Made by a program: the position numbers and the translations under genes. The notes beneath the pieces were generated by a model. It was not told where the DNA came from, did not search any database, and saw only the letters and a list, made by a program, of their open reading frames with translations. Source: Escherichia coli (GTDB lineage Bacteria > Pseudomonadota > Gammaproteobacteria > Enterobacterales > Enterobacteriaceae). Taken from it: a stretch of 64,000 nt of DNA. The DNA lies in assembly GCF_030013205.1 (NCBI RefSeq), contig NZ_CP122648.1; one strand, written 5' to 3'. Positions 1,680 to 18,265 of this stretch are shown here, piece after piece; within the stretch, counting starts at the first letter, position 1; each line of letters starts with the position of its first letter.

Positions 1680-2031
1680 TTTGTCTTTTCTTGCATCTTG
1701 TTCGAAGGAATGCCTAAAGAGTTACCATAGATTTTGCGAATAGCACAAGATATTTTTTGGCCTATTTTTATGATGTCTTTAATAATTTCAAGAGAAATTG
1801 TTGTTTTTTAAAAAGAAAATAGTGAGTGAAAAAAATTCAATTTCAGTATGAATGTTGTTCCCTTCCTCGTAGTTCATCCTTTGCCCGCTGCATTTTTGCG
1901 AGCATCATTCCACCGCCAGAACAACTCAACTTCACTTACACAAATAAACCGGAATCAGCCACTAAAATTCACGAATTAGCGGGCTACAGCAGCGATATCT
2001 TATGCACATAATGGTGACTCAAGGAGGGCTT

Positions 2032-2211
2032 ATGTCACTGTCAATTGTTCATACCCGCGCAGCCCTGGGAGTAAATGCGCCCCCAATCACTGTTGAGGTA
2101 CATATCAGTAAAGGTCTACCCGGCTTAACGATGGTGGGCTTACCAGAAACAACGGTAAAAGAAGCCCGCGATCGCGTGCGCAGCGCCATTATCAATAGCG
2201 GATTTTTATAA
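2032..2211 (+). pseudogene. comM: comM (yifB) 5' fragment, truncated by island insertion after codon ~57
   Basis: Translation MSLSIVHTRAALGVNAPPITVEVHISKGLPGLTMVGLPETTVKEARDRVRSAIINSGF then diverges (L, stop) at the junction; the rest of the gene resumes at 16913. Confidence 0.85.
2194..2203. repeat. attL core copy (aatagcggat)
   Basis: Identical 10-mer at 16907..16916; lies at the exact point where the comM frame breaks. Confidence 0.5.
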
Positions 2212-2300
2212 ATTAGTGTTTTTTGCTGTTTCATAATGTGCCACGTTGTTCATTATGTTTTTGATTTTTAAGTCTATTACAATTTTCATTGTTCCAGCTT

Positions 2301-2353
2301 GTTCCACGTTGTACCCCTTTGTGCAATGATCGGTGTAGTCACTGGTGTAGTCA
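2301..2353. repeat. Subterminal left repeat (gttccacgttgt ... cggtgtagtcactggtgtagtca), candidate integrase arm-type site
   Basis: Imperfect ~55-bp direct repeat of 16781..16838 near the opposite island end. Confidence 0.45.
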
Positions 2354-2391
2354 TTTTTTTTGCAAACAGGGGAGGAAATGTGAGCAGAGCA

Positions 2392-3609
2392 ATGAACAAA
2401 CTGAGCGACACATTGTTAAGAAAACTTCATGGTAAGCCGGCGGAGAAAAATACGTTTTATAGCGATGGCGGAAATCTGAGCGTGAAATATTTAACATCAG
2501 GGAAATTGACCTGGTATTTCACTTACAGGGCGGGAACGGGAAGGGGTACACCACCGGAACGCCTGAAGCTGGGAAATTATCCTGATCTGAGCCTGAAAGC
2601 AGCCAGGGAAAAAGCAGCACAGTGTCGCGCATGGCTGGCAGAAGGAAAAAATCCACGCCATGAGCTTAATTACTCCATACAGGAAGCACTAAAGCCGGTA
2701 ACGGTGGGCGATGCGATCAGCTACTGGCTGGAAATGCACGTAAAGGAAAACCGTGTCGATTACGTATGCCTGAAAAGCCGCCTTAATAATCACGTCATAC
2801 AGCATATTGGCAATATGCCACTGGATAAATGCGAGTTACGTCACTGGCTGGCCTGTTTTGACCGGATACGCAAAAAATCACCCGTAACATCTGGCCACAT
2901 GATGCAGGCGTGTAAACAGGCGCTTAAGTTCTGCCGTAAACGTCGCTACGCAGTCAGTAACGTTCTGGATGATCTCAACGTGGTGGACGTTGGCAAAAAG
3001 CCGGGCATAAGCGAACGCGTGCTGAGCAACAAAGAACTGAGCGAATTATTACAGGCGCTGGATAAAAAAATATTCCCGCCCTACTACAGCGCACTAATCC
3101 GCCTCCTGATTGTGTTCGGCTGCCGGACCGGAGAACTGAGGCTGTCGGAGATCAGGGAGTGGGATTTTAAGGAAATGCTCTGGACAGTACCGAAAGAGCA
3201 CAGCAAAACGAAGGTCGCCATATTCAGGCCAATACCGGAAAGCATTTTGCCGTTCGTCACACAGCTGGTGGAGCAGAACAGGCACACAGGGCTATTACTC
3301 GGGGAACTGAAACAGGAAGCCAGCGTGTCGCAATACGGCAGATTCACGCACAAAAAATTAAACCATCCGCACTGGTCACTACACGATATACGGCGCACGT
3401 TTACCACGATGCTGAACGATTTAGGCGTGGATCCACATATTGTCGAACAACTCACCGCTCACCAGATGCCAGGGATGCAACGAGTCTATAACCACTCCCG
3501 TTATATCGATGCGAAACGTAATGCGCTGGATATGTGGACAGAGCGATTAGAGATACTGGCAGGTGCTCACGAAAACGTAACCACACTGCCAATAGCCAGA
3601 GAAATATAA
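2392..3609 (+). CDS. int: Tyrosine recombinase / phage integrase
   Basis: ORF 2299..3609; likely start ATG 2392 (MNKLSDT) after GGGAGGA at 2368-2376; C-terminal HDIRRTF...VYNHSRY region consistent with a tyrosine-recombinase catalytic domain; abuts attL. Confidence 0.85.
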   Translation: MNKLSDTLLRKLHGKPAEKNTFYSDGGNLSVKYLTSGKLTWYFTYRAGTGRGTPPERLKLGNYPDLSLKAAREKAAQCRAWLAEGKNPRHELNYSIQEALKPVTVGDAISYWLEMHVKENRVDYVCLKSRLNNHVIQHIGNMPLDKCELRHWLACFDRIRKKSPVTSGHMMQACKQALKFCRKRRYAVSNVLDDLNVVDVGKKPGISERVLSNKELSELLQALDKKIFPPYYSALIRLLIVFGCRTGELRLSEIREWDFKEMLWTVPKEHSKTKVAIFRPIPESILPFVTQLVEQNRHTGLLLGELKQEASVSQYGRFTHKKLNHPHWSLHDIRRTFTTMLNDLGVDPHIVEQLTAHQMPGMQRVYNHSRYIDAKRNALDMWTERLEILAGAHENVTTLPIAREI

Positions 3610-3627: not shown

Positions 3628-3690
3628 AGAACGGACACAACGTGAAACAACGAGACACAACGACGAACAACGGCGAACAATCTGGAACAA
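3628..3690 (+). repeat. Array of six ~10-bp direct repeats (RAACAACG family) downstream of int
   Basis: acacaacg tgaaacaacg agacacaacg acgaacaacg gcgaacaatc tggaacaaac read directly from sequence. Confidence 0.4.
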
Positions 3691-3976
3691 ACTTGATTAT
3701 CATCTGACCGACACCCTAAAAAGTTGATTTTCAGTCGTTTTACTGGCTTTTTGTACATTGGCGAATCACTCTTAAAAACATGTAAAAAAGGCGTAAAAAC
3801 AGAATTTTACGCTACCGCATCACAATGAATTAAAAGAGTTTTTATTCTCATTACCCCACTTCTGTAAAACGACCGCCACCAGTGTTTGCCATTCCATAAA
3901 CACCCTGACACAATCCGACCCAACCCAACCCAATAATCCACCCAATGACTCTTTAAGAAACAACAAAGGGGGAATT

Positions 3977-4165
3977 GTGTTAAGCACAGATCGCTTTATA
4001 CGTGAAAAAGAATGTCAGCAACTTACAGGCCTGAGCCGTTCATGCCGCTACCGCCTGGAAAAAGCCGGACAATTCCCATCACGGCGTAAACTCGGTGGTC
4101 GTTCCGTTGGCTGGTCTTTATCCGAAGTTCTGGCATGGAAGGACAGCCGCGAGGCAGTTCACTAA
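3977..4165 (+). CDS. alpA: AlpA-family phage transcriptional regulator (62 aa)
   Basis: GTG start after AAAGGGGGA; translation LTGLSRSCRYRLEKAGQFPSRRKLGGRSVGWSLSEVLAW resembles the AlpA/prophage CP4-57 regulator HTH. Confidence 0.7.
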   Translation: MLSTDRFIREKECQQLTGLSRSCRYRLEKAGQFPSRRKLGGRSVGWSLSEVLAWKDSREAVH

Positions 4166-6807: not shown

Positions 6808-7098
6808 ATGAAAAAGAAAAATTCTGGCTTTACTGCCAGCGGCCTCTCTCGGCCTGAAATCCGCCCCGGTGATATTTTCCGGGACACCAGACGCGGGGGA
6901 CGGGTGGTTATTCGTCACGTTACGCCAGGCAATATCACCTACCGCCGTGAGGCTTACGAATATGACTGCGTAATGCCGCGCCGTCAGTTTGATCGTGATT
7001 TTATTCTGGTGGAAAACAAACAACTGGCAGTGGCGAGACGTGCAGCCACGAATATTAAAAAAATCCGGGCAATGTTGGTTGCGGGAGGTAAGAAGTGA
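6808..7098 (+). CDS. Hypothetical basic protein (96 aa)
   Basis: ORF with stop overlapping the GTG start of the helicase gene (GTGA at 7095-7098). Confidence 0.5.
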   Translation: MKKKNSGFTASGLSRPEIRPGDIFRDTRRGGRVVIRHVTPGNITYRREAYEYDCVMPRRQFDRDFILVENKQLAVARRAATNIKKIRAMLVAGGKK

Positions 7099-8507
7099 AA
7101 AACGCACCGAGTCTAAAATATCAGCCGAAGGATAAATTCACTGAGGTAATCATTTTTGCCGGGACGGATGCTTACGCCCATGCTCAACACTGGATTGAAA
7201 GTGAAGGACGAAAACACGGCGATAACGTGCCTCCTGTTTACCTGGGGCCAAAGCAACTGGCAGACCTGGCGAATATCCGCATTATTGACGAGAAACGCCG
7301 TTTTGCGCGTGTCTATATCGCGGGGGAGATAGAGCCAATCCAGATCAATACTATCGCTGAAAAGCTGGCGCTGGCTGGCGTACAGGAGGCGAAATTATAC
7401 AAAGGTATCACCGACCAGGAACCGGAGAACTGGCGCGACTACCTGCAACGGATCCGCGAACAGGCTGAGCGCGAAGAAATGCTTACTGACGAGCAATACA
7501 GCCAGCGAAAAACCACGCTACCAATGAGCATTGGATCGGAAGGATACGATTCACAGCTTAGCTATGTGGTTAAGGGTGTGATTCCGGCTAATTCGTTGTG
7601 CAGCACATACGGTGCGAGCGGTTCTTATAAGTCGTTCCTTGCGTGTTCGTGGGCGTGTCATGTTGCTACCGGTATCCCGTGGGGAGGTCGCAGGGTTGTA
7701 CATGGTGCGGTGATGTATGTCGTTGGTGAGGGCGGGATCGGTGTTCCTCGTCGTATCAAGGCATGGGAACTGGTGAACAGTGAGCAGGTGAAAAATCTGT
7801 ACCTGGTAAATCGTCCAATTTTTCCGGCCGCACCGAGTGATGTTGATGAAATGGTTATTGCTGCCCGACAGGTTGAGCAGGAAACGGGTAAACCTGTACG
7901 CATGATTATTCTGGATACTCTGGCGCGTTGCTTTGGTGGCAGCGATGAAAATGATGCGCGGGATATGGGGGCATTTGTCCATGGATGTGACGAACTGAAA
8001 CGGCGTACAGGCGCTACAGTGCTGGTAATTCACCATTCCGGCAAGGATGAAACAAAGGGTGCGCGCGGTTCCAGTGCGTTTCGTGCAGCACTGGATGCAG
8101 AGTACCGGATACGCCGTGAAGGTGCAGGCAGTGAAGCCCTGGTTATCGCATGTACCAAGATGAAGGATGCGGAGGAACTGAAAGAAATGGCTTGCGATTT
8201 GCGCGAGGTTGAGCTTTTCAAGGATGAAGGCGGGGAGTTAATCACGTCATTGGTGCTGGAGGATAAGCCCCGTCCGCCAGTTGAACTGGAGCGCATCGAG
8301 TACGCTGCTAACAAGACAGAGAATCACGTCGCGCTATGGGGCTGTATCCGTTCACGCACGCAACGCGGAGATAAATGCACTATCCCGTTGTTGCGCGATG
8401 ACATGAAAAAGCTGGGGTATGAGATGAAACACTTCCGGCGCTGGCTGTACAAGCTGGAAGGTGACGGCGTAATCACTATTGACGGTGATGACGTGCGCCC
8501 ACTGTAA
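7095..8507 (+). CDS. Replication helicase/primase-like protein, RecA-fold (AAA_25/RepA-like) ATPase (470 aa)
   Basis: GASGSYKSF Walker-A-like motif, MIILDTLARCFGG and LVIHHSGKDETKGARGSSAF motifs typical of RepA/DnaB-like helicases; iterons immediately downstream. Confidence 0.65.
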   Translation: MKNAPSLKYQPKDKFTEVIIFAGTDAYAHAQHWIESEGRKHGDNVPPVYLGPKQLADLANIRIIDEKRRFARVYIAGEIEPIQINTIAEKLALAGVQEAKLYKGITDQEPENWRDYLQRIREQAEREEMLTDEQYSQRKTTLPMSIGSEGYDSQLSYVVKGVIPANSLCSTYGASGSYKSFLACSWACHVATGIPWGGRRVVHGAVMYVVGEGGIGVPRRIKAWELVNSEQVKNLYLVNRPIFPAAPSDVDEMVIAARQVEQETGKPVRMIILDTLARCFGGSDENDARDMGAFVHGCDELKRRTGATVLVIHHSGKDETKGARGSSAFRAALDAEYRIRREGAGSEALVIACTKMKDAEELKEMACDLREVELFKDEGGELITSLVLEDKPRPPVELERIEYAANKTENHVALWGCIRSRTQRGDKCTIPLLRDDMKKLGYEMKHFRRWLYKLEGDGVITIDGDDVRPL

Positions 8508-16916: not shown

Positions 16917-18265
16917 ATGAATATCCGGCGAAAAAAATCACCATCAACCTTGCTCCAGCCGATCTGCCAAAAGAAGGGGGACGATATGATTTACCTATCG
17001 CCATTGCGTTGCTGGCGGCCTCAGAACAGCTTACAGCCAATAAATTAGATGAATATGAATTAGTCGGAGAACTGGCGCTTACAGGCGCTCTGCGTGGCGT
17101 TCCCGGCGCAATCTCCAGTGCAACTGAAGCTATTAAGTCGGGCAGAAAAATTATCGTCGCGAAAGATAACGAAGATGAAGTGGGGCTAATTAACGGTGAA
17201 GGATGCCTGATAGCCGATCATCTGCAGGCTGTCTGTGCGTTTCTGGAAGGTAAGCACGCTCTCGAACGCCCGAAACCAACTGATGCAGTATCCCGGGCAC
17301 AACAACATGATCTCAATGATGTTGTCGGTCAGGAGCAAGGAAAGCGAGGACTGGAAATTACCGCCGCTGGCGGGCACAACCTTTTACTGATTGGGCCGCC
17401 GGGAACAGGTAAAACAATGCTCGCCAGCCGTATTAATGGCCTGTTGCCAGATTTAAGCAATGAAGAGGCACTGGAGAGCGCGGCGATATTAAGTCTGGTA
17501 AATGCTGAATCAGTACAAAAACAATGGCGGCAGCGCCCGTTCCGCTCACCGCATCACAGTGCGTCGTTAACTGCGATGGTGGGCGGTGGTGCAATTCCAG
17601 GGCCAGGTGAAATTTCGCTGGCACATAACGGCGTGCTTTTTCTTGATGAGCTACCTGAATTTGAACGGCGTACACTGGATGCCTTGCGAGAGCCGATTGA
17701 ATCCGGGCAGATCCATCTTTCACGCACACGAGCAAAAATAACCTATCCAGCCCGTTTCCAACTTGTTGCGGCGATGAATCCCAGCCCTACCGGACATTAT
17801 CAGGGAAACCATAACCGCTGCACACCAGAACAGACATTACGTTATCTCAACCGGCTCTCGGGGCCCTTTCTCGACCGCTTCGATCTCTCACTGGAGATCC
17901 CATTACCGCCCCCCGGCATTTTGAGTAAAACGGTAGTGCCGGGAGAAAACAGCACCACCGTTAAACAACGCGTAATGGCCGCCAGAGAGCGCCAATTTAA
18001 GCGGCAGAATAAACTGAATGCCTGGCTGGATAGTCCGGAAATACGCCAATTCTGCAAGCTTGAGAGCGAAGATGCGCAGTGGCTGGAAGAAACGCTGATC
18101 CATCTGGGGTTATCGATTCGTGCCTGGCAGCGGTTACTGAAAGTAGCACGAACCATTGCTGATATTGATCAGTCCGACATTATCACACGTCAGCATTTGC
18201 AGGAGGCAGTTAGCTATCGTGCCATTGACCGTTTGCTCATCCATCTGCAAAAACTACTGACATAA
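16913..18265 (+). pseudogene. comM: comM (yifB) 3' portion, Mg-chelatase-like AAA+ ATPase, separated from its 5' end by the island
   Basis: In-frame continuation G(Y)EYPAKKITINLAPADLPKEGG...; Walker A LLIGPPGTGKTM; ends ...LIHLQKLLT. Confidence 0.85.

What the first reader, a model, noticed from the sequence alone, without database searches (positions are those of the whole stretch)
3628..3690. Array of six RAACAACG repeats just downstream of the integrase stop
acacaacg / aaacaacg / acacaacg / gaacaacg / gaacaatc / gaacaaac in tandem at roughly 10-bp phasing, in the int-alpA intergenic region. This could be a regulator binding array for AlpA or an excision-directionality factor, or part of a small RNA.
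Basis: seen in the sequence. Interest (0 to 1): 0.35.

Follow-up and report, generated by a model that had tools for sequence, protein, structure and literature searches.

The report
Likely AlpA operator array in PICI
Six short DNA repeats spaced exactly one helical turn apart, just after the integrase gene of an E. coli phage satellite (PICI), are real and conserved, and are most likely the unmapped docking site of AlpA, the small protein that switches the island on and helps cut it out.

Summary
Six units (ACACAACG, AAACAACG, ACACAACG, GAACAACG, GAACAATC, GAACAAAC) sit at exact 10-bp phase at 3635-3692, starting 26 bp after the int stop. The host element is a 14.7-kb PICI-type satellite inserted in yifB/comM. 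No comparable run arose in 300 random 64-kb sequences.

All 52 distinct int-alpA spacers I collected have 5-6 units. The ACAA core is kept, the spacers vary, and unit number changes only in 10-bp steps. EcCICFT073, the experimentally studied PICI, carries the array inside the 456-bp fragment that AlpA is reported to activate.

The same motif lies inverted and phased in both att arms: four units plus one in attL and three in attR. There it sits next to a different doubled 12-bp motif that matches the layout of the P4 integrase arm repeats. Across island lineages the phased motif changes with AlpA and the doubled motif changes with Int.

My best reading (confidence about 0.55) is an operator for cooperative head-to-tail binding of AlpA, a winged-helix excisionase-type regulator. 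This parallels the 186 Apl, P2 Cox and TorI sites. Binding itself is inferred, not shown. The small-RNA idea finds no support. It is a new member of a known kind and of moderate interest.

The parts
3635..3694 (+). Distal array, the finding itself: six 10-bp units ACACAACGtg AAACAACGag ACACAACGac GAACAACGgc GAACAATCtg GAACAAACtt
   Evidence: conserved in 52 of 52 distinct spacers
2285..2324 (-). attL-arm block of four units of the same motif at exact 10-bp phase, inverted relative to the array (minus strand GCACAAAGGG GTACAACGTG GAACAAGCTG GAACAATGAA). It lies between the att core and the doubled motif A.
2242..2251 (-). Isolated unit GAACAACGTG, the best PWM score in the region, 39 bp from the attL core
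16765..16794 (-). attR-arm block of three phased units (minus strand CAACAACGTG GAACAAATAG ACACAAGCGA)
2332..2353 (+). Motif A, GGTGTAGTCA twice at 12-bp period, 26 bp upstream of the int start. Inferred Int arm-type sites of the P' arm.
   Evidence: P4 arm-repeat architecture; HE-PICI doubled motif
16812..16833 (+). Motif A, GGTGTAGTTA/GGTGTAGTCA at 12-bp period. Inferred Int arm-type sites of the P arm.
2194..2203 (.). attL copy of the 10-bp identity block AATAGCGGAT inside yifB/comM (left island border)
16907..16916 (.). attR copy of AATAGCGGAT (right island border)
2380..3609 (+). int: P4-type tyrosine integrase, 409 aa, with Arm-DNA-bind_3 and Phage_integrase domains
3977..4165 (+). alpA: 62 aa, PF05930. 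The predicted fold is an excisionase-type winged helix-turn-helix.
3886..3914 (+). Predicted alpA promoter: -35 TTGCCA, 17-bp spacer, TG-extended -10 CACAAT. Its position is conserved in all variants. The transcription start is not mapped.
3898..3947 (+). Proximal degenerate 10-bp periodic block (AAACACCCTG ACACAATCCG ACCCAACCCA ACCCAATAAT CCACCCAATG). It overlaps the promoter spacer, the -10 and the leader, in the same orientation as the distal array.
3791..3812 (.). Conserved hairpin GCGTAAAA-N6-TTTTACGC between the array and the promoter. It is terminator-like on the minus strand; G-U pairs in relatives fit the plus strand.

Best explanation
The array is a cis-acting DNA element of a Gram-negative phage-inducible chromosomal island (PICI). 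It is a row of six head-to-tail binding sites, one per helical turn, for AlpA. AlpA is the island's 62-aa winged-helix protein and serves both as recombination directionality factor and as activator of the island's own cycle. AlpA protomers are proposed to load cooperatively on the six good sites and bend the DNA. From there they raise transcription of alpA from the promoter about 200 bp downstream. They could do this by looping to, or spreading toward, the weaker phased sites that overlap that promoter, or by opening the AT-rich and possibly silenced spacer. The result would be a sharp positive-feedback switch. The same protein would use shorter blocks of the same motif beside the integrase arm sites in attL and attR to direct excision. 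What is shown: the array, its phase and its conservation; the shared motif in the att arms; covariation with the AlpA allele; its inclusion in the AlpA-responsive fragment of EcCICFT073; and the excisionase-type fold of AlpA. What is inferred: that AlpA is the protein that binds, that binding is cooperative, and how binding changes promoter activity.
For: (1) The array is real, unique in the window and non-random.
(2) It is conserved at the DNA level. All 52 distinct int-alpA spacers from E. coli genomes and IMG/VR contigs have 5-6 units at exact 10-bp phase. The cores are kept while the spacers vary. One variant gains a clean 10-bp unit and one carries a single core mutation. The alpA allele occurs in 882 of 5426 complete E. 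coli genomes.
(3) The motif also occurs as phased blocks, inverted, in attL (four units plus one) and attR (three units). The only 8-mers shared by both att arms and the int-alpA spacer are ACAACGTG and TGGAACAA.
(4) A second motif, GGTGTAGTNA doubled at 12-bp period, occurs only in the two arms. It has the layout of the annotated P4 attP arm repeats and of the doubled motif of HE-PICIs. The integrase arm sites are therefore already accounted for.
(5) Covariation. Where AlpA is 61% identical, the phased motif shifts its invariant core from ACAA to CGAAC, both in attL and upstream of alpA, while the doubled motif is unchanged. Where AlpA is 92% identical but the Int N-domain is only 60% identical, the phased motif is unchanged and the doubled motif changes.
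(6) Published experiments on EcCICFT073 show that AlpA activates a PalpA-lacZ fusion. They also show that AlpA over-expression triggers int-dependent excision and replication without raising Pint (PMC6092414). That fusion fragment is L194 9128-9583 and contains the six-unit array at 9187-9246.
(7) AlpA is PF05930. Its model (pLDDT 87) best matches excisionases: GIsul2 Xis 8c3t with TM 0.83, RdfS, TorI and Pukovnik Xis, plus BldC.
(8) Precedent. RDFs bind head-to-tail to tandem repeats one DNA turn apart. Apl of phage 186 has seven operators at pR-pL and five at attP (PMC7498355). TorI sites are 8 bp plus a 2-bp spacer, with three in tandem next to PintS (PMC2951348). RdfS binds attP and its own promoter (PMC11963761).
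Against: No binding data exist, and neither a footprint nor a gel shift can be run here. The array ends 196-200 bp upstream of the predicted -35. That is far for a simple activator, and the real alpA transcription start is unmapped. The known dual-purpose RDF arrays (Apl, Cox, TorI) overlap promoters and repress them, whereas AlpA is reported to activate. AlpA had no significant effect on the Pint fusion, although that fragment appears to include the attL block. The covariation rests on three lineages only. The two motif versions overlap (both include GAAC / TTGTTC), so the shift in specificity is modest. RDF sites on both att arms are unusual. P4 Vis (46% identical) and CP4-57 AlpA show no comparable ACAA arrays. 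In P. aeruginosa, AlpA works as an antiterminator from a site between -35 and -10, which is a different mode.
Confidence: 0.55

Rival explanations
1. The units are integrase arm-type sites. The N-terminal arm-binding domain of Int binds the array, either to regulate alpA or int (for example Int acting as the missing PICI repressor) or to titrate Int. The doubled GGTGTAGTCA motif would then be the AlpA site.
For: Arm-type sites of lambda-type integrases are also tandem direct repeats about one turn apart. The motif occurs in both att arms, and sites on both arms are more typical of Int than of an RDF. Int carries an Arm-DNA-bind_3 domain. IntS represses its own promoter through arm sites.
Against: The array lies 1.43 kb from the core, outside any intasome. 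The doubled 12-bp motif has exactly the position, copy number and period of the P4 arm repeats and the HE-PICI doubled motif. The covariation pattern pairs the doubled motif with Int and the phased motif with AlpA. Eight or more phased units in the arms exceed what four Int protomers can use.
Confidence: 0.12
2. The array is the input for another winged-helix protein. One candidate is a helper-phage factor such as its excisionase, which would switch alpA on. Another is a host OmpR-family response regulator, since those also use 10-bp phased direct repeats (TorR boxes CTGTTCATAT, OmpR half-sites GAAACA).
For: Helper phages induce alpA independently of SOS, and in EcCIMP1 partly independently of AlpA; the inducer is not identified in the papers read. 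Excisionase cross-talk between a PICI AlpA paralogue and its helper is reported. Units 1 and 3 share the 7-mer ACACAAC with the lambda X1 Xis site (about 0.05 expected by chance, my estimate). Six 10-bp half-sites equal the footprint of three response-regulator dimers (from my own knowledge of OmpR sites).
Against: The PWM of the array gives no hit of 6 bits or more in the lambda att region. Helpers as different as lambda, phi80 and Kapi1 would need a common protein specificity. The motif's presence beside the arm sites in both att arms, and its shift with the island's own AlpA allele, argue for an island-encoded partner.
Confidence: 0.12
3. It acts as RNA. The CA-rich repeat would be part of the int 3' UTR or of a small RNA and would bind Hfq, ProQ or CsrA, or affect int mRNA stability.
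For: There is no intrinsic terminator between the int stop and the array, so int transcripts probably read through it to the hairpin at 3791-3812. The stretch is strongly A-rich on the sense strand (AT skew 0.8). The island encodes a ProQ/FinO-family protein.
Against: There is no Rfam match. The fold is no better than shuffles (z = +0.25) and the array is predicted to be largely unstructured. The exact 10-nt period and gain of units in 10-nt steps have no rationale in RNA. The same motif is used in the opposite orientation upstream of int and in attR. Each unit offers only two consecutive A-R-N triplets.
Confidence: 0.05
4. It has no function. It is a minisatellite made by replication slippage and carried along by recent common descent of these islands.
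For: One variant shows a unit duplication (L042), so slippage does occur. All the islands sampled are fairly close relatives (Int at least 82% identical within the main group).
Against: Spacers that are only about 75% identical overall still keep the ACAA cores and the phase while the spacer bases differ. The units are not identical copies, as fresh slippage products would be. The motif recurs in non-homologous positions (att arms). A lineage with a different AlpA has a different phased array upstream of alpA.
Confidence: 0.04

Closest known systems
Apl operators of coliphage 186 and Cox boxes of P2 (dual-purpose RDF and transcription regulator)
   Same: Both are tandem direct repeats about one helical turn apart. 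One set lies at the attachment site and a larger set (seven for Apl) at a regulatory region. They are bound cooperatively head-to-tail by a small winged-helix RDF that also regulates transcription (PMC7498355).
   Different: Apl and Cox arrays lie between or over face-to-face promoters and repress them. This array ends about 200 bp upstream of the promoter it presumably serves, and AlpA is reported to activate. Apl and Cox are not sequence relatives of AlpA. Binding is not shown here.
TorI sites in attL of prophage KplE1/CPS-53
   Same: The sites are 8 bp with 2-bp spacers. Three sit in tandem next to the -35 of the integrase promoter, between the core and the Int arm sites (PMC2951348). This is the same layout as the four-unit block at 2285-2324. 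The sister lineage L081 even carries CAGTTCGCC units like TorI's CAGTTCGC.
   Different: TorI is only 23% identical to this AlpA and does not reach the PF05930 threshold. No distal array near the RDF gene is described for KplE1, and TorI represses intS.
P4 Vis and the P4 attP arm repeats
   Same: Vis is the closest characterised homologue (46% identity). It is an RDF that also regulates promoters, and it is the first gene of its operon. P4 attP has doubled 12-bp arm repeats on both sides of the core, one pair just upstream of int, like motif A here.
   Different: P4 has no ACAA-type phased array. Its arm repeat sequence is GGGGGCAYA. The P4 int gene is not followed by vis.
AlpA of EcCICFT073 and other Gram-negative PICIs
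   Same: This is the same island family and the same array (L194 9187-9246). AlpA is the master activator, activates its own promoter fragment and triggers int-dependent excision (PMC6092414).
   Different: The papers I could read do not map any AlpA binding site or mention the repeats. The link between AlpA and the array is my inference.
RdfS (ICEMlSym R7A) and BldC filaments
   Same: Both are winged-helix proteins of the same fold class. They oligomerise head-to-tail with one DNA turn per protomer. RdfS binds both attP and its own promoter (PMC11963761). Both appear among the structural matches of the AlpA model.
   Different: RdfS shows no clear consensus motif and represses its own promoter. 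Here there is a clear ACAA core, and autoactivation is reported.
AlpA of Pseudomonas aeruginosa (processive antiterminator)
   Same: Same Pfam family name. It is a positive regulator that needs a DNA element at the promoter (PMC7969949). One weak unit here (3898-3907) lies in the -35/-10 spacer of the predicted alpA promoter.
   Different: Its element is a single GGGACGN5GGTA between -35 and -10, not a distal six-unit array. No antitermination evidence exists for PICI AlpA.

Membership tests
RDF (excisionase) operator arrays: lambda Xis X1-X1.5-X2, P2 Cox boxes, 186 Apl operators, TorI sites | Three or more direct (head-to-tail) repeats spaced one helical turn (10-11 bp) apart | tested here: met
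   Six units at exact 10-bp phase; 5-6 units in all 52 relatives
RDF (excisionase) operator arrays: lambda Xis X1-X1.5-X2, P2 Cox boxes, 186 Apl operators, TorI sites | The same motif is present in an att arm, adjacent to integrase arm-type sites | tested here: met
   attL 2285-2324 and 2242-2251, attR 16765-16794, next to the doubled motif A
RDF (excisionase) operator arrays: lambda Xis X1-X1.5-X2, P2 Cox boxes, 186 Apl operators, TorI sites | A small basic winged-helix RDF is encoded by the element | tested here: met
   alpA is PF05930 at E = 3e-18. The model best matches excisionases 8c3t, 8dgl, 1z4h and 4j2n. AlpA-driven int-dependent excision is published for EcCICFT073.
RDF (excisionase) operator arrays: lambda Xis X1-X1.5-X2, P2 Cox boxes, 186 Apl operators, TorI sites | The motif co-varies with the RDF, not with the integrase | tested here: met
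   2x2 pattern over three lineages. The sample is small and the motif versions overlap.
RDF (excisionase) operator arrays: lambda Xis X1-X1.5-X2, P2 Cox boxes, 186 Apl operators, TorI sites | The RDF binds the repeats cooperatively and bends the DNA | not testable with these tools
   Needs a gel shift, footprint or bending assay
RDF (excisionase) operator arrays: lambda Xis X1-X1.5-X2, P2 Cox boxes, 186 Apl operators, TorI sites | For the dual-purpose type: the non-att array controls a promoter | tested here: inconclusive
   The array lies inside the AlpA-responsive fragment of EcCICFT073 but 196-200 bp upstream of the predicted -35. No deletion data exist.
Integrase arm-type binding sites | Located in the att arms within roughly 200 bp of the crossover core | tested here: not met
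   The array is 1.43 kb from the attL core
Integrase arm-type binding sites | Matches the repeat that flanks the core on both sides in the layout known for P4-family integrases (tandem pairs, one pair just upstream of int) | tested here: not met
   That layout is filled by GGTGTAGTNA x2, not by the ACAA units
Replication-origin iterons of PICIs | Sets of repeats flanking an AT-rich stretch downstream of pri/rep, with the same sequence as the island's iterons | tested here: not met
   The iterons AAAAGTGGGKAG lie at 8506-8700 after repA and differ in sequence (PMC6092414)
Small or structured RNA | A match to a described family, or a structure more stable than shuffled sequence, with strand-specific conservation | tested here: not met
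   No Rfam hit; z = +0.25; the motif is used on both strands
P. aeruginosa AlpA binding element (antiterminator loading site) | A single element GGGACGN5GGTA between -35 and -10 of the target promoter | tested here: not met
   The sequence and position differ. Only a weak unit at 3898-3907 lies in the spacer.
Gram-negative PICI (context of the array) | int, alpA and pri/rep co-oriented, ori after rep, about 10-15 kb, specific att site | tested here: met
   the same family as EcCICFT073

The most novel reading that the evidence does not exclude
The array is the sensing input of Gram-negative PICIs rather than only an autoregulatory site. In this reading a helper-phage winged-helix protein, for example its own excisionase made early after induction, nucleates on the six sites and turns alpA on. 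AlpA then takes over the same sites for feedback. That would identify the long-sought helper signal and explain how helpers as different as lambda, phi80 and Kapi1 induce these islands. A variant of this reading has the filament spreading from the array to lift H-NS silencing of the AT-rich spacer.
Probability: 0.1. Interest if true: 0.7.

Novelty: new member of a known kind. Interest (0 to 1): 0.4.

Why it matters
PICIs are widespread satellites; this alpA allele alone is present in 882 of 5426 complete E. coli genomes. AlpA is their master switch, yet none of the papers I could read maps where AlpA binds or how helper phages turn alpA on. A defined 60-bp candidate operator, with matching blocks in attL and attR, makes both questions directly testable by gel shifts, reporter deletions and ChIP. 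It would also give a cis-element for engineering PICI-based delivery vehicles. Conceptually it adds little. It extends the Apl/Cox/TorI principle, one winged-helix protein and one repeat type used both for excision and for transcription, to another family. The unusual feature is that the main array sits about 200 bp from the promoter it presumably activates.

Tried and rejected
Replication iterons: rejected. The island's iterons are at 8506-8700 and have another sequence.

Small RNA or structured RNA: rejected. Rfam finds nothing in the spacer, and the two weak hits at 10534 and 11480 are far below their gathering scores. The fold is indistinguishable from shuffles.

Phage collection: no DNA match to the spacer.

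Genome-contig scan with Int: the peptide patterns were too specific and nothing was confirmed. The second scan, with an AlpA alignment, returned mostly very distant alpha-proteobacterial AlpA loci that were useless for motif covariation. I used them only to deepen the alignment for structure prediction.

CP4-57 (the original AlpA) and P4: no ACAA-type phased arrays, so the motif is specific to this AlpA lineage.

Sigma-70 promoters next to or over the array: none convincing on either strand, whether by the scan or by eye. The only conserved promoter-like site is at 3886-3914.

Lambda Xis site similarity: a shared 7-mer (ACACAAC), but no PWM hit of 6 bits or more in lambda att. I kept it only as a low-probability lead.

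TorI as an 'AlpA-family' protein: corrected. It does not reach PF05930 in Pfam and is a fold-level analogue only.

PDB entry 8c3t: no paper in the library describes it.

Full report
CONTEXT. The window is E. coli chromosome. A 100% match lies in strain ETEC1748, with ilv genes on one side and yifB, maoP, hdfR and an rRNA operon on the other. The finding sits in a 14.7-kb island inserted in yifB/comM. The 5' fragment of yifB ends at about 2203 and the rest resumes at about 16917. A 10-bp identity block, AATAGCGGAT, marks both junctions (2194-2203 and 16907-16916).

The island has the gene order of a Gram-negative phage-inducible chromosomal island (PICI). It encodes int (2380-3609, with Arm-DNA-bind_3 and Phage_integrase domains), alpA (3977-4165, PF05930), an AntA/Bro-type gene, Icd-like and DUF4222 genes, and a RepA-type helicase (7095-8507). 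The helicase gene is followed by iterons (AAAAGTGGGKAG, 8506-8700). All these genes are co-oriented.

The prototype EcCICFT073 belongs to the same family, with the same alpA allele as the roxA-site islands.

THE OBSERVATION. Six units lie at exact 10-bp phase: ACACAACGtg, AAACAACGag, ACACAACGac, GAACAACGgc, GAACAATCtg and GAACAAACtt. They span 3635-3694 and start 26 bp after the int stop. Tandem Repeats Finder reports period 10. It is the only run of four or more identical 5-mers at 9-12-bp spacing in the 64 kb. None of 300 Markov-1 random sequences of the same length produced such a run at 10-bp spacing.

CONSERVATION. The spacer is found by megablast in 167 of 5426 complete E. coli genomes. 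The alpA gene is found in 882 of them, at several insertion sites (yifB, roxA, allE, tqsA and others).

I collected 52 distinct int-alpA spacers from these genomes and from 69 IMG/VR contigs. All have the array. It has five or six units, always in exact 10-bp register. One variant has a clean extra unit, and one has a single ACAA to ATAA change. In spacers that are only about 75% identical overall, the ACAA cores are invariant while the two spacer bases and the flanks vary. The per-position statistics are partly circular, because arrays were found through ACAA; the blind alignments show the same pattern.

The distance from the last unit to the predicted -35 of alpA is 196-200 bp in 49 of the 51 variants with an intact array, and 208 bp in the other two.

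THE SAME MOTIF IN THE att ARMS. A weight matrix built from the six units finds no other cluster in the island except in the two arms.

- attL has four units at exact 10-bp phase on the opposite strand (2285-2324). It also has the best-scoring single unit of the whole region (2242-2251, GAACAACGTG).
- attR has three phased units (16765-16794).
- The attL block is at the same position relative to int in every island examined.
- The only 8-mers shared by the attL arm, the attR arm and the int-alpA spacer are ACAACGTG and TGGAACAA.

Next to these blocks lies a second, unrelated motif, GGTGTAGTNA. It occurs four times in the 64 kb, as two pairs 12 bp apart: one pair 26 bp upstream of int and one in attR.

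Phage P4 has the closest characterised relatives of both proteins (Vis is 46% identical to AlpA). Its GenBank record annotates 'attP arm sequence repeats' with precisely this layout: tandem 12-bp pairs on both sides of the core, one pair just before int. A doubled motif with the same geometry is described for helper-embedded PICIs and tentatively assigned to the Int arm domains (PMC10111431). I therefore assign the doubled motif to Int. This is inference by architecture. It leaves the phased ACAA motif to another protein.

WHICH PROTEIN. Three lines of evidence point to AlpA.

(a) Logic from published experiments on EcCICFT073. AlpA over-expression causes int-dependent excision and replication although it does not raise Pint, so AlpA must act at the att sites. 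AlpA also activates a PalpA-lacZ fusion, so it must act in the int-alpA spacer (PMC6092414). The primers of that fusion place the fragment at L194 9128-9583. This fragment contains the six-unit array at 9187-9246. The phased motif is the only specific sequence common to the arms and the spacer.

(b) Covariation.
- In a sister lineage (L081, L164, L167, L190) AlpA is 61% identical, with a changed recognition helix (SRSCRYR becomes CRTTRYE). The Int N-domain is 74% identical. The doubled motif is unchanged. The phased attL block reads cTTGTTCGcc cTTGTTCGtc acaGTTCGcc cTTGTACGat, so its invariant part is (G)TTCG rather than TTGT. Upstream of alpA there is a conserved phased array of CGAAC units instead of ACAA units.
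- In a third lineage (L151, L154-159) AlpA is 92% identical to the second lineage, but the Int N-domain is only 60% identical. The phased motif stays the same, and the doubled motif changes to TGTGTGGTCAGT.
- This is the pattern expected if AlpA reads the phased motif and Int reads the doubled one. It rests on only three lineages, and the two versions of the phased motif overlap.

(c) Protein type. AlpA is PF05930. Its AlphaFold model (pLDDT 87) is a winged helix-turn-helix. The best solved matches are excisionases (GIsul2 Xis 8c3t with TM 0.83, RdfS, TorI, Pukovnik Xis) and the filament-forming BldC.

RDFs characteristically bind head-to-tail and cooperatively to tandem repeats one DNA turn apart. 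Several also regulate transcription through a second set of the same repeats. Apl of phage 186 has seven operators at pR-pL and five at attP (PMC7498355). TorI sites in KplE1 attL are 8-bp sites with 2-bp spacers, three in a row beside the -35 of PintS (PMC2951348). RdfS binds attP and its own promoter (PMC11963761).

HOW IT MAY WORK (inferred). The only conserved sigma-70-like promoter in the spacer is TTGCCA-17-CACAAT with a TG extension (3886-3914).

A second, degenerate 10-bp periodic block runs from the promoter spacer through the -10 into the leader (3898-3947), in the same orientation as the array. The -10 itself is the ACAA core of a unit. Four sequence-divergent variants all show lag-10 autocorrelation of 0.55-0.57, against about 0.3 at other lags (p of 0.002 or less).

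Between the two blocks lies an AT-rich stretch (28-37% G+C). It contains a conserved hairpin (3791-3812) that looks like a terminator for minus-strand transcripts.

My working model has three steps. First, AlpA made after helper-phage induction loads cooperatively on the six strong distal sites. Second, it bends the DNA and communicates with the weak promoter-proximal sites, either by looping or by spreading (spreading into non-specific DNA is documented for Apl). Third, it may also relieve silencing of the AT-rich spacer; H-NS silencing of an alpA promoter is documented in Shewanella CP4So (PMC5148205). The outcome would be the reported positive autoregulation with a sharp threshold. None of these steps is shown. 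The distance of about 200 bp and the activating sign differ from the known Apl, Cox and TorI cases.

RIVALS.
- Int arm sites (0.12): disfavoured by the position, the P4-type architecture and the covariation.
- Another winged-helix protein, from the helper phage or the host (0.12). It cannot be excluded, because the helper-derived inducer of alpA is unidentified in the papers read. There is also a weak resemblance to the lambda X1 site, a shared 7-mer with no PWM hit.
- RNA-level function (0.05): no Rfam hit, no structure, the motif on both strands, and a period in multiples of 10.
- Neutral minisatellite (0.04): contradicted by core-versus-spacer conservation and by the recurrence of the motif at non-homologous sites.

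LITERATURE. Full-text searches on PICI and AlpA, AlpA binding, and excisionase direct repeats found no description of these repeats or of an AlpA binding site in E. coli PICIs. The library does not cover subscription journals, so prior description elsewhere cannot be excluded.

VERDICT. This is a real, conserved, DNA-level element. It is most likely the AlpA operator of this PICI family, and part of a three-site system (spacer array, attL block, attR block) that shares one motif. It is a new member of a known kind (RDF tandem-repeat operators) and of moderate interest. Its main value is that it makes AlpA binding and helper sensing directly testable.

Noticed in passing
window 2332-2353 and 16812-16833: GGTGTAGTNA occurs only four times in the 64 kb, as two tandem pairs with a 12-bp period: one pair 26 bp upstream of int and one in the attR arm. 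The layout matches the annotated P4 attP arm repeats and the HE-PICI doubled motif, so these are probably the Int arm-type sites.
   Followed up: yes
window 3898-3947: A degenerate 10-bp periodic block (AAACACCCTG ACACAATCCG ACCCAACCCA ...) overlaps the spacer, the -10 and the leader of the predicted alpA promoter. The periodicity is kept in four sequence-divergent variants (lag-10 autocorrelation about 0.56, p of 0.002 or less). It may be a set of weak proximal sites for the same protein.
   Followed up: partly
window 3791-3812: A conserved hairpin, GCGTAAAA-N6-TTTTACGC, has an A-run before it and a T-run on the minus strand. It scores as a minus-strand intrinsic terminator, yet G-U pairs in relatives fit the plus strand. 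Which transcript it ends is unknown.
   Followed up: partly
window 3851-3868 and 8506-8700: The ori iterons (AAAAGTGGGKAG, in two sets) lie just after repA. An iteron-like box in reverse (TTACCCCACTTCTG, with conserved CTTCTGTAAA) sits about 20 bp upstream of the -35 of the predicted alpA promoter. This hints at a link between the replication protein and alpA control.
   Followed up: no
window 15574-15835: A cluster of direct repeats (CGCGAAAAAGTGTCAA, AAAAGTGTCAAGTTG, ATGYTAAGRTTTGWTAAGGT) lies just downstream of a 175-aa ORF with an N-terminal HTH-like start (15046-15573), near the right end of the island. It could be a packaging or regulatory site.
   Followed up: no
window 12955-14994: A 679-aa ORF lies in the right part of the island. 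This part is absent from the otherwise identical island of strain ETEC1748 (L001), so the cargo differs between islands sharing the same int-alpA module.
   Followed up: no
L081 2535-2572 (E. coli UTAK-13, cspD-site island): In a sister lineage the alpA start is preceded by a terminator-like hairpin (CGTCCTCG-N12-CGAGGACG followed by T7). The hairpin contains the Shine-Dalgarno sequence and two CGTTCG units 10 bp apart. An extra ORF lies between int and alpA.
   Followed up: partly
L164 about 1283-1322 and 1500-1535: Islands with the second AlpA allele have a different 10-bp array (GAATATCGGA AAATATCTGC AAATATCTTC) right after the int stop; its copy number varies. They also have a conserved array of CGAAC units at 11-bp spacing about 150 bp upstream of alpA.
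   Followed up: partly
L196 (P4) 4100-4150 and L195 (lambda) attP P arm: The P4 stretch between its arm repeats and the core (CATTGTTGTGTTTTATTATTTGTTTTTTAT) resembles the lambda Xis X1/X2 region (ATGTTGTGTTTTA...TGTTTTTTAT). Units 1 and 3 of the array share ACACAAC with lambda X1.
   Followed up: partly
window 2002-2211 and about 16917-18265: The island splits yifB/comM and is co-oriented with it, so read-through from the yifB promoter could contribute to int transcription at this insertion site.
   Followed up: no
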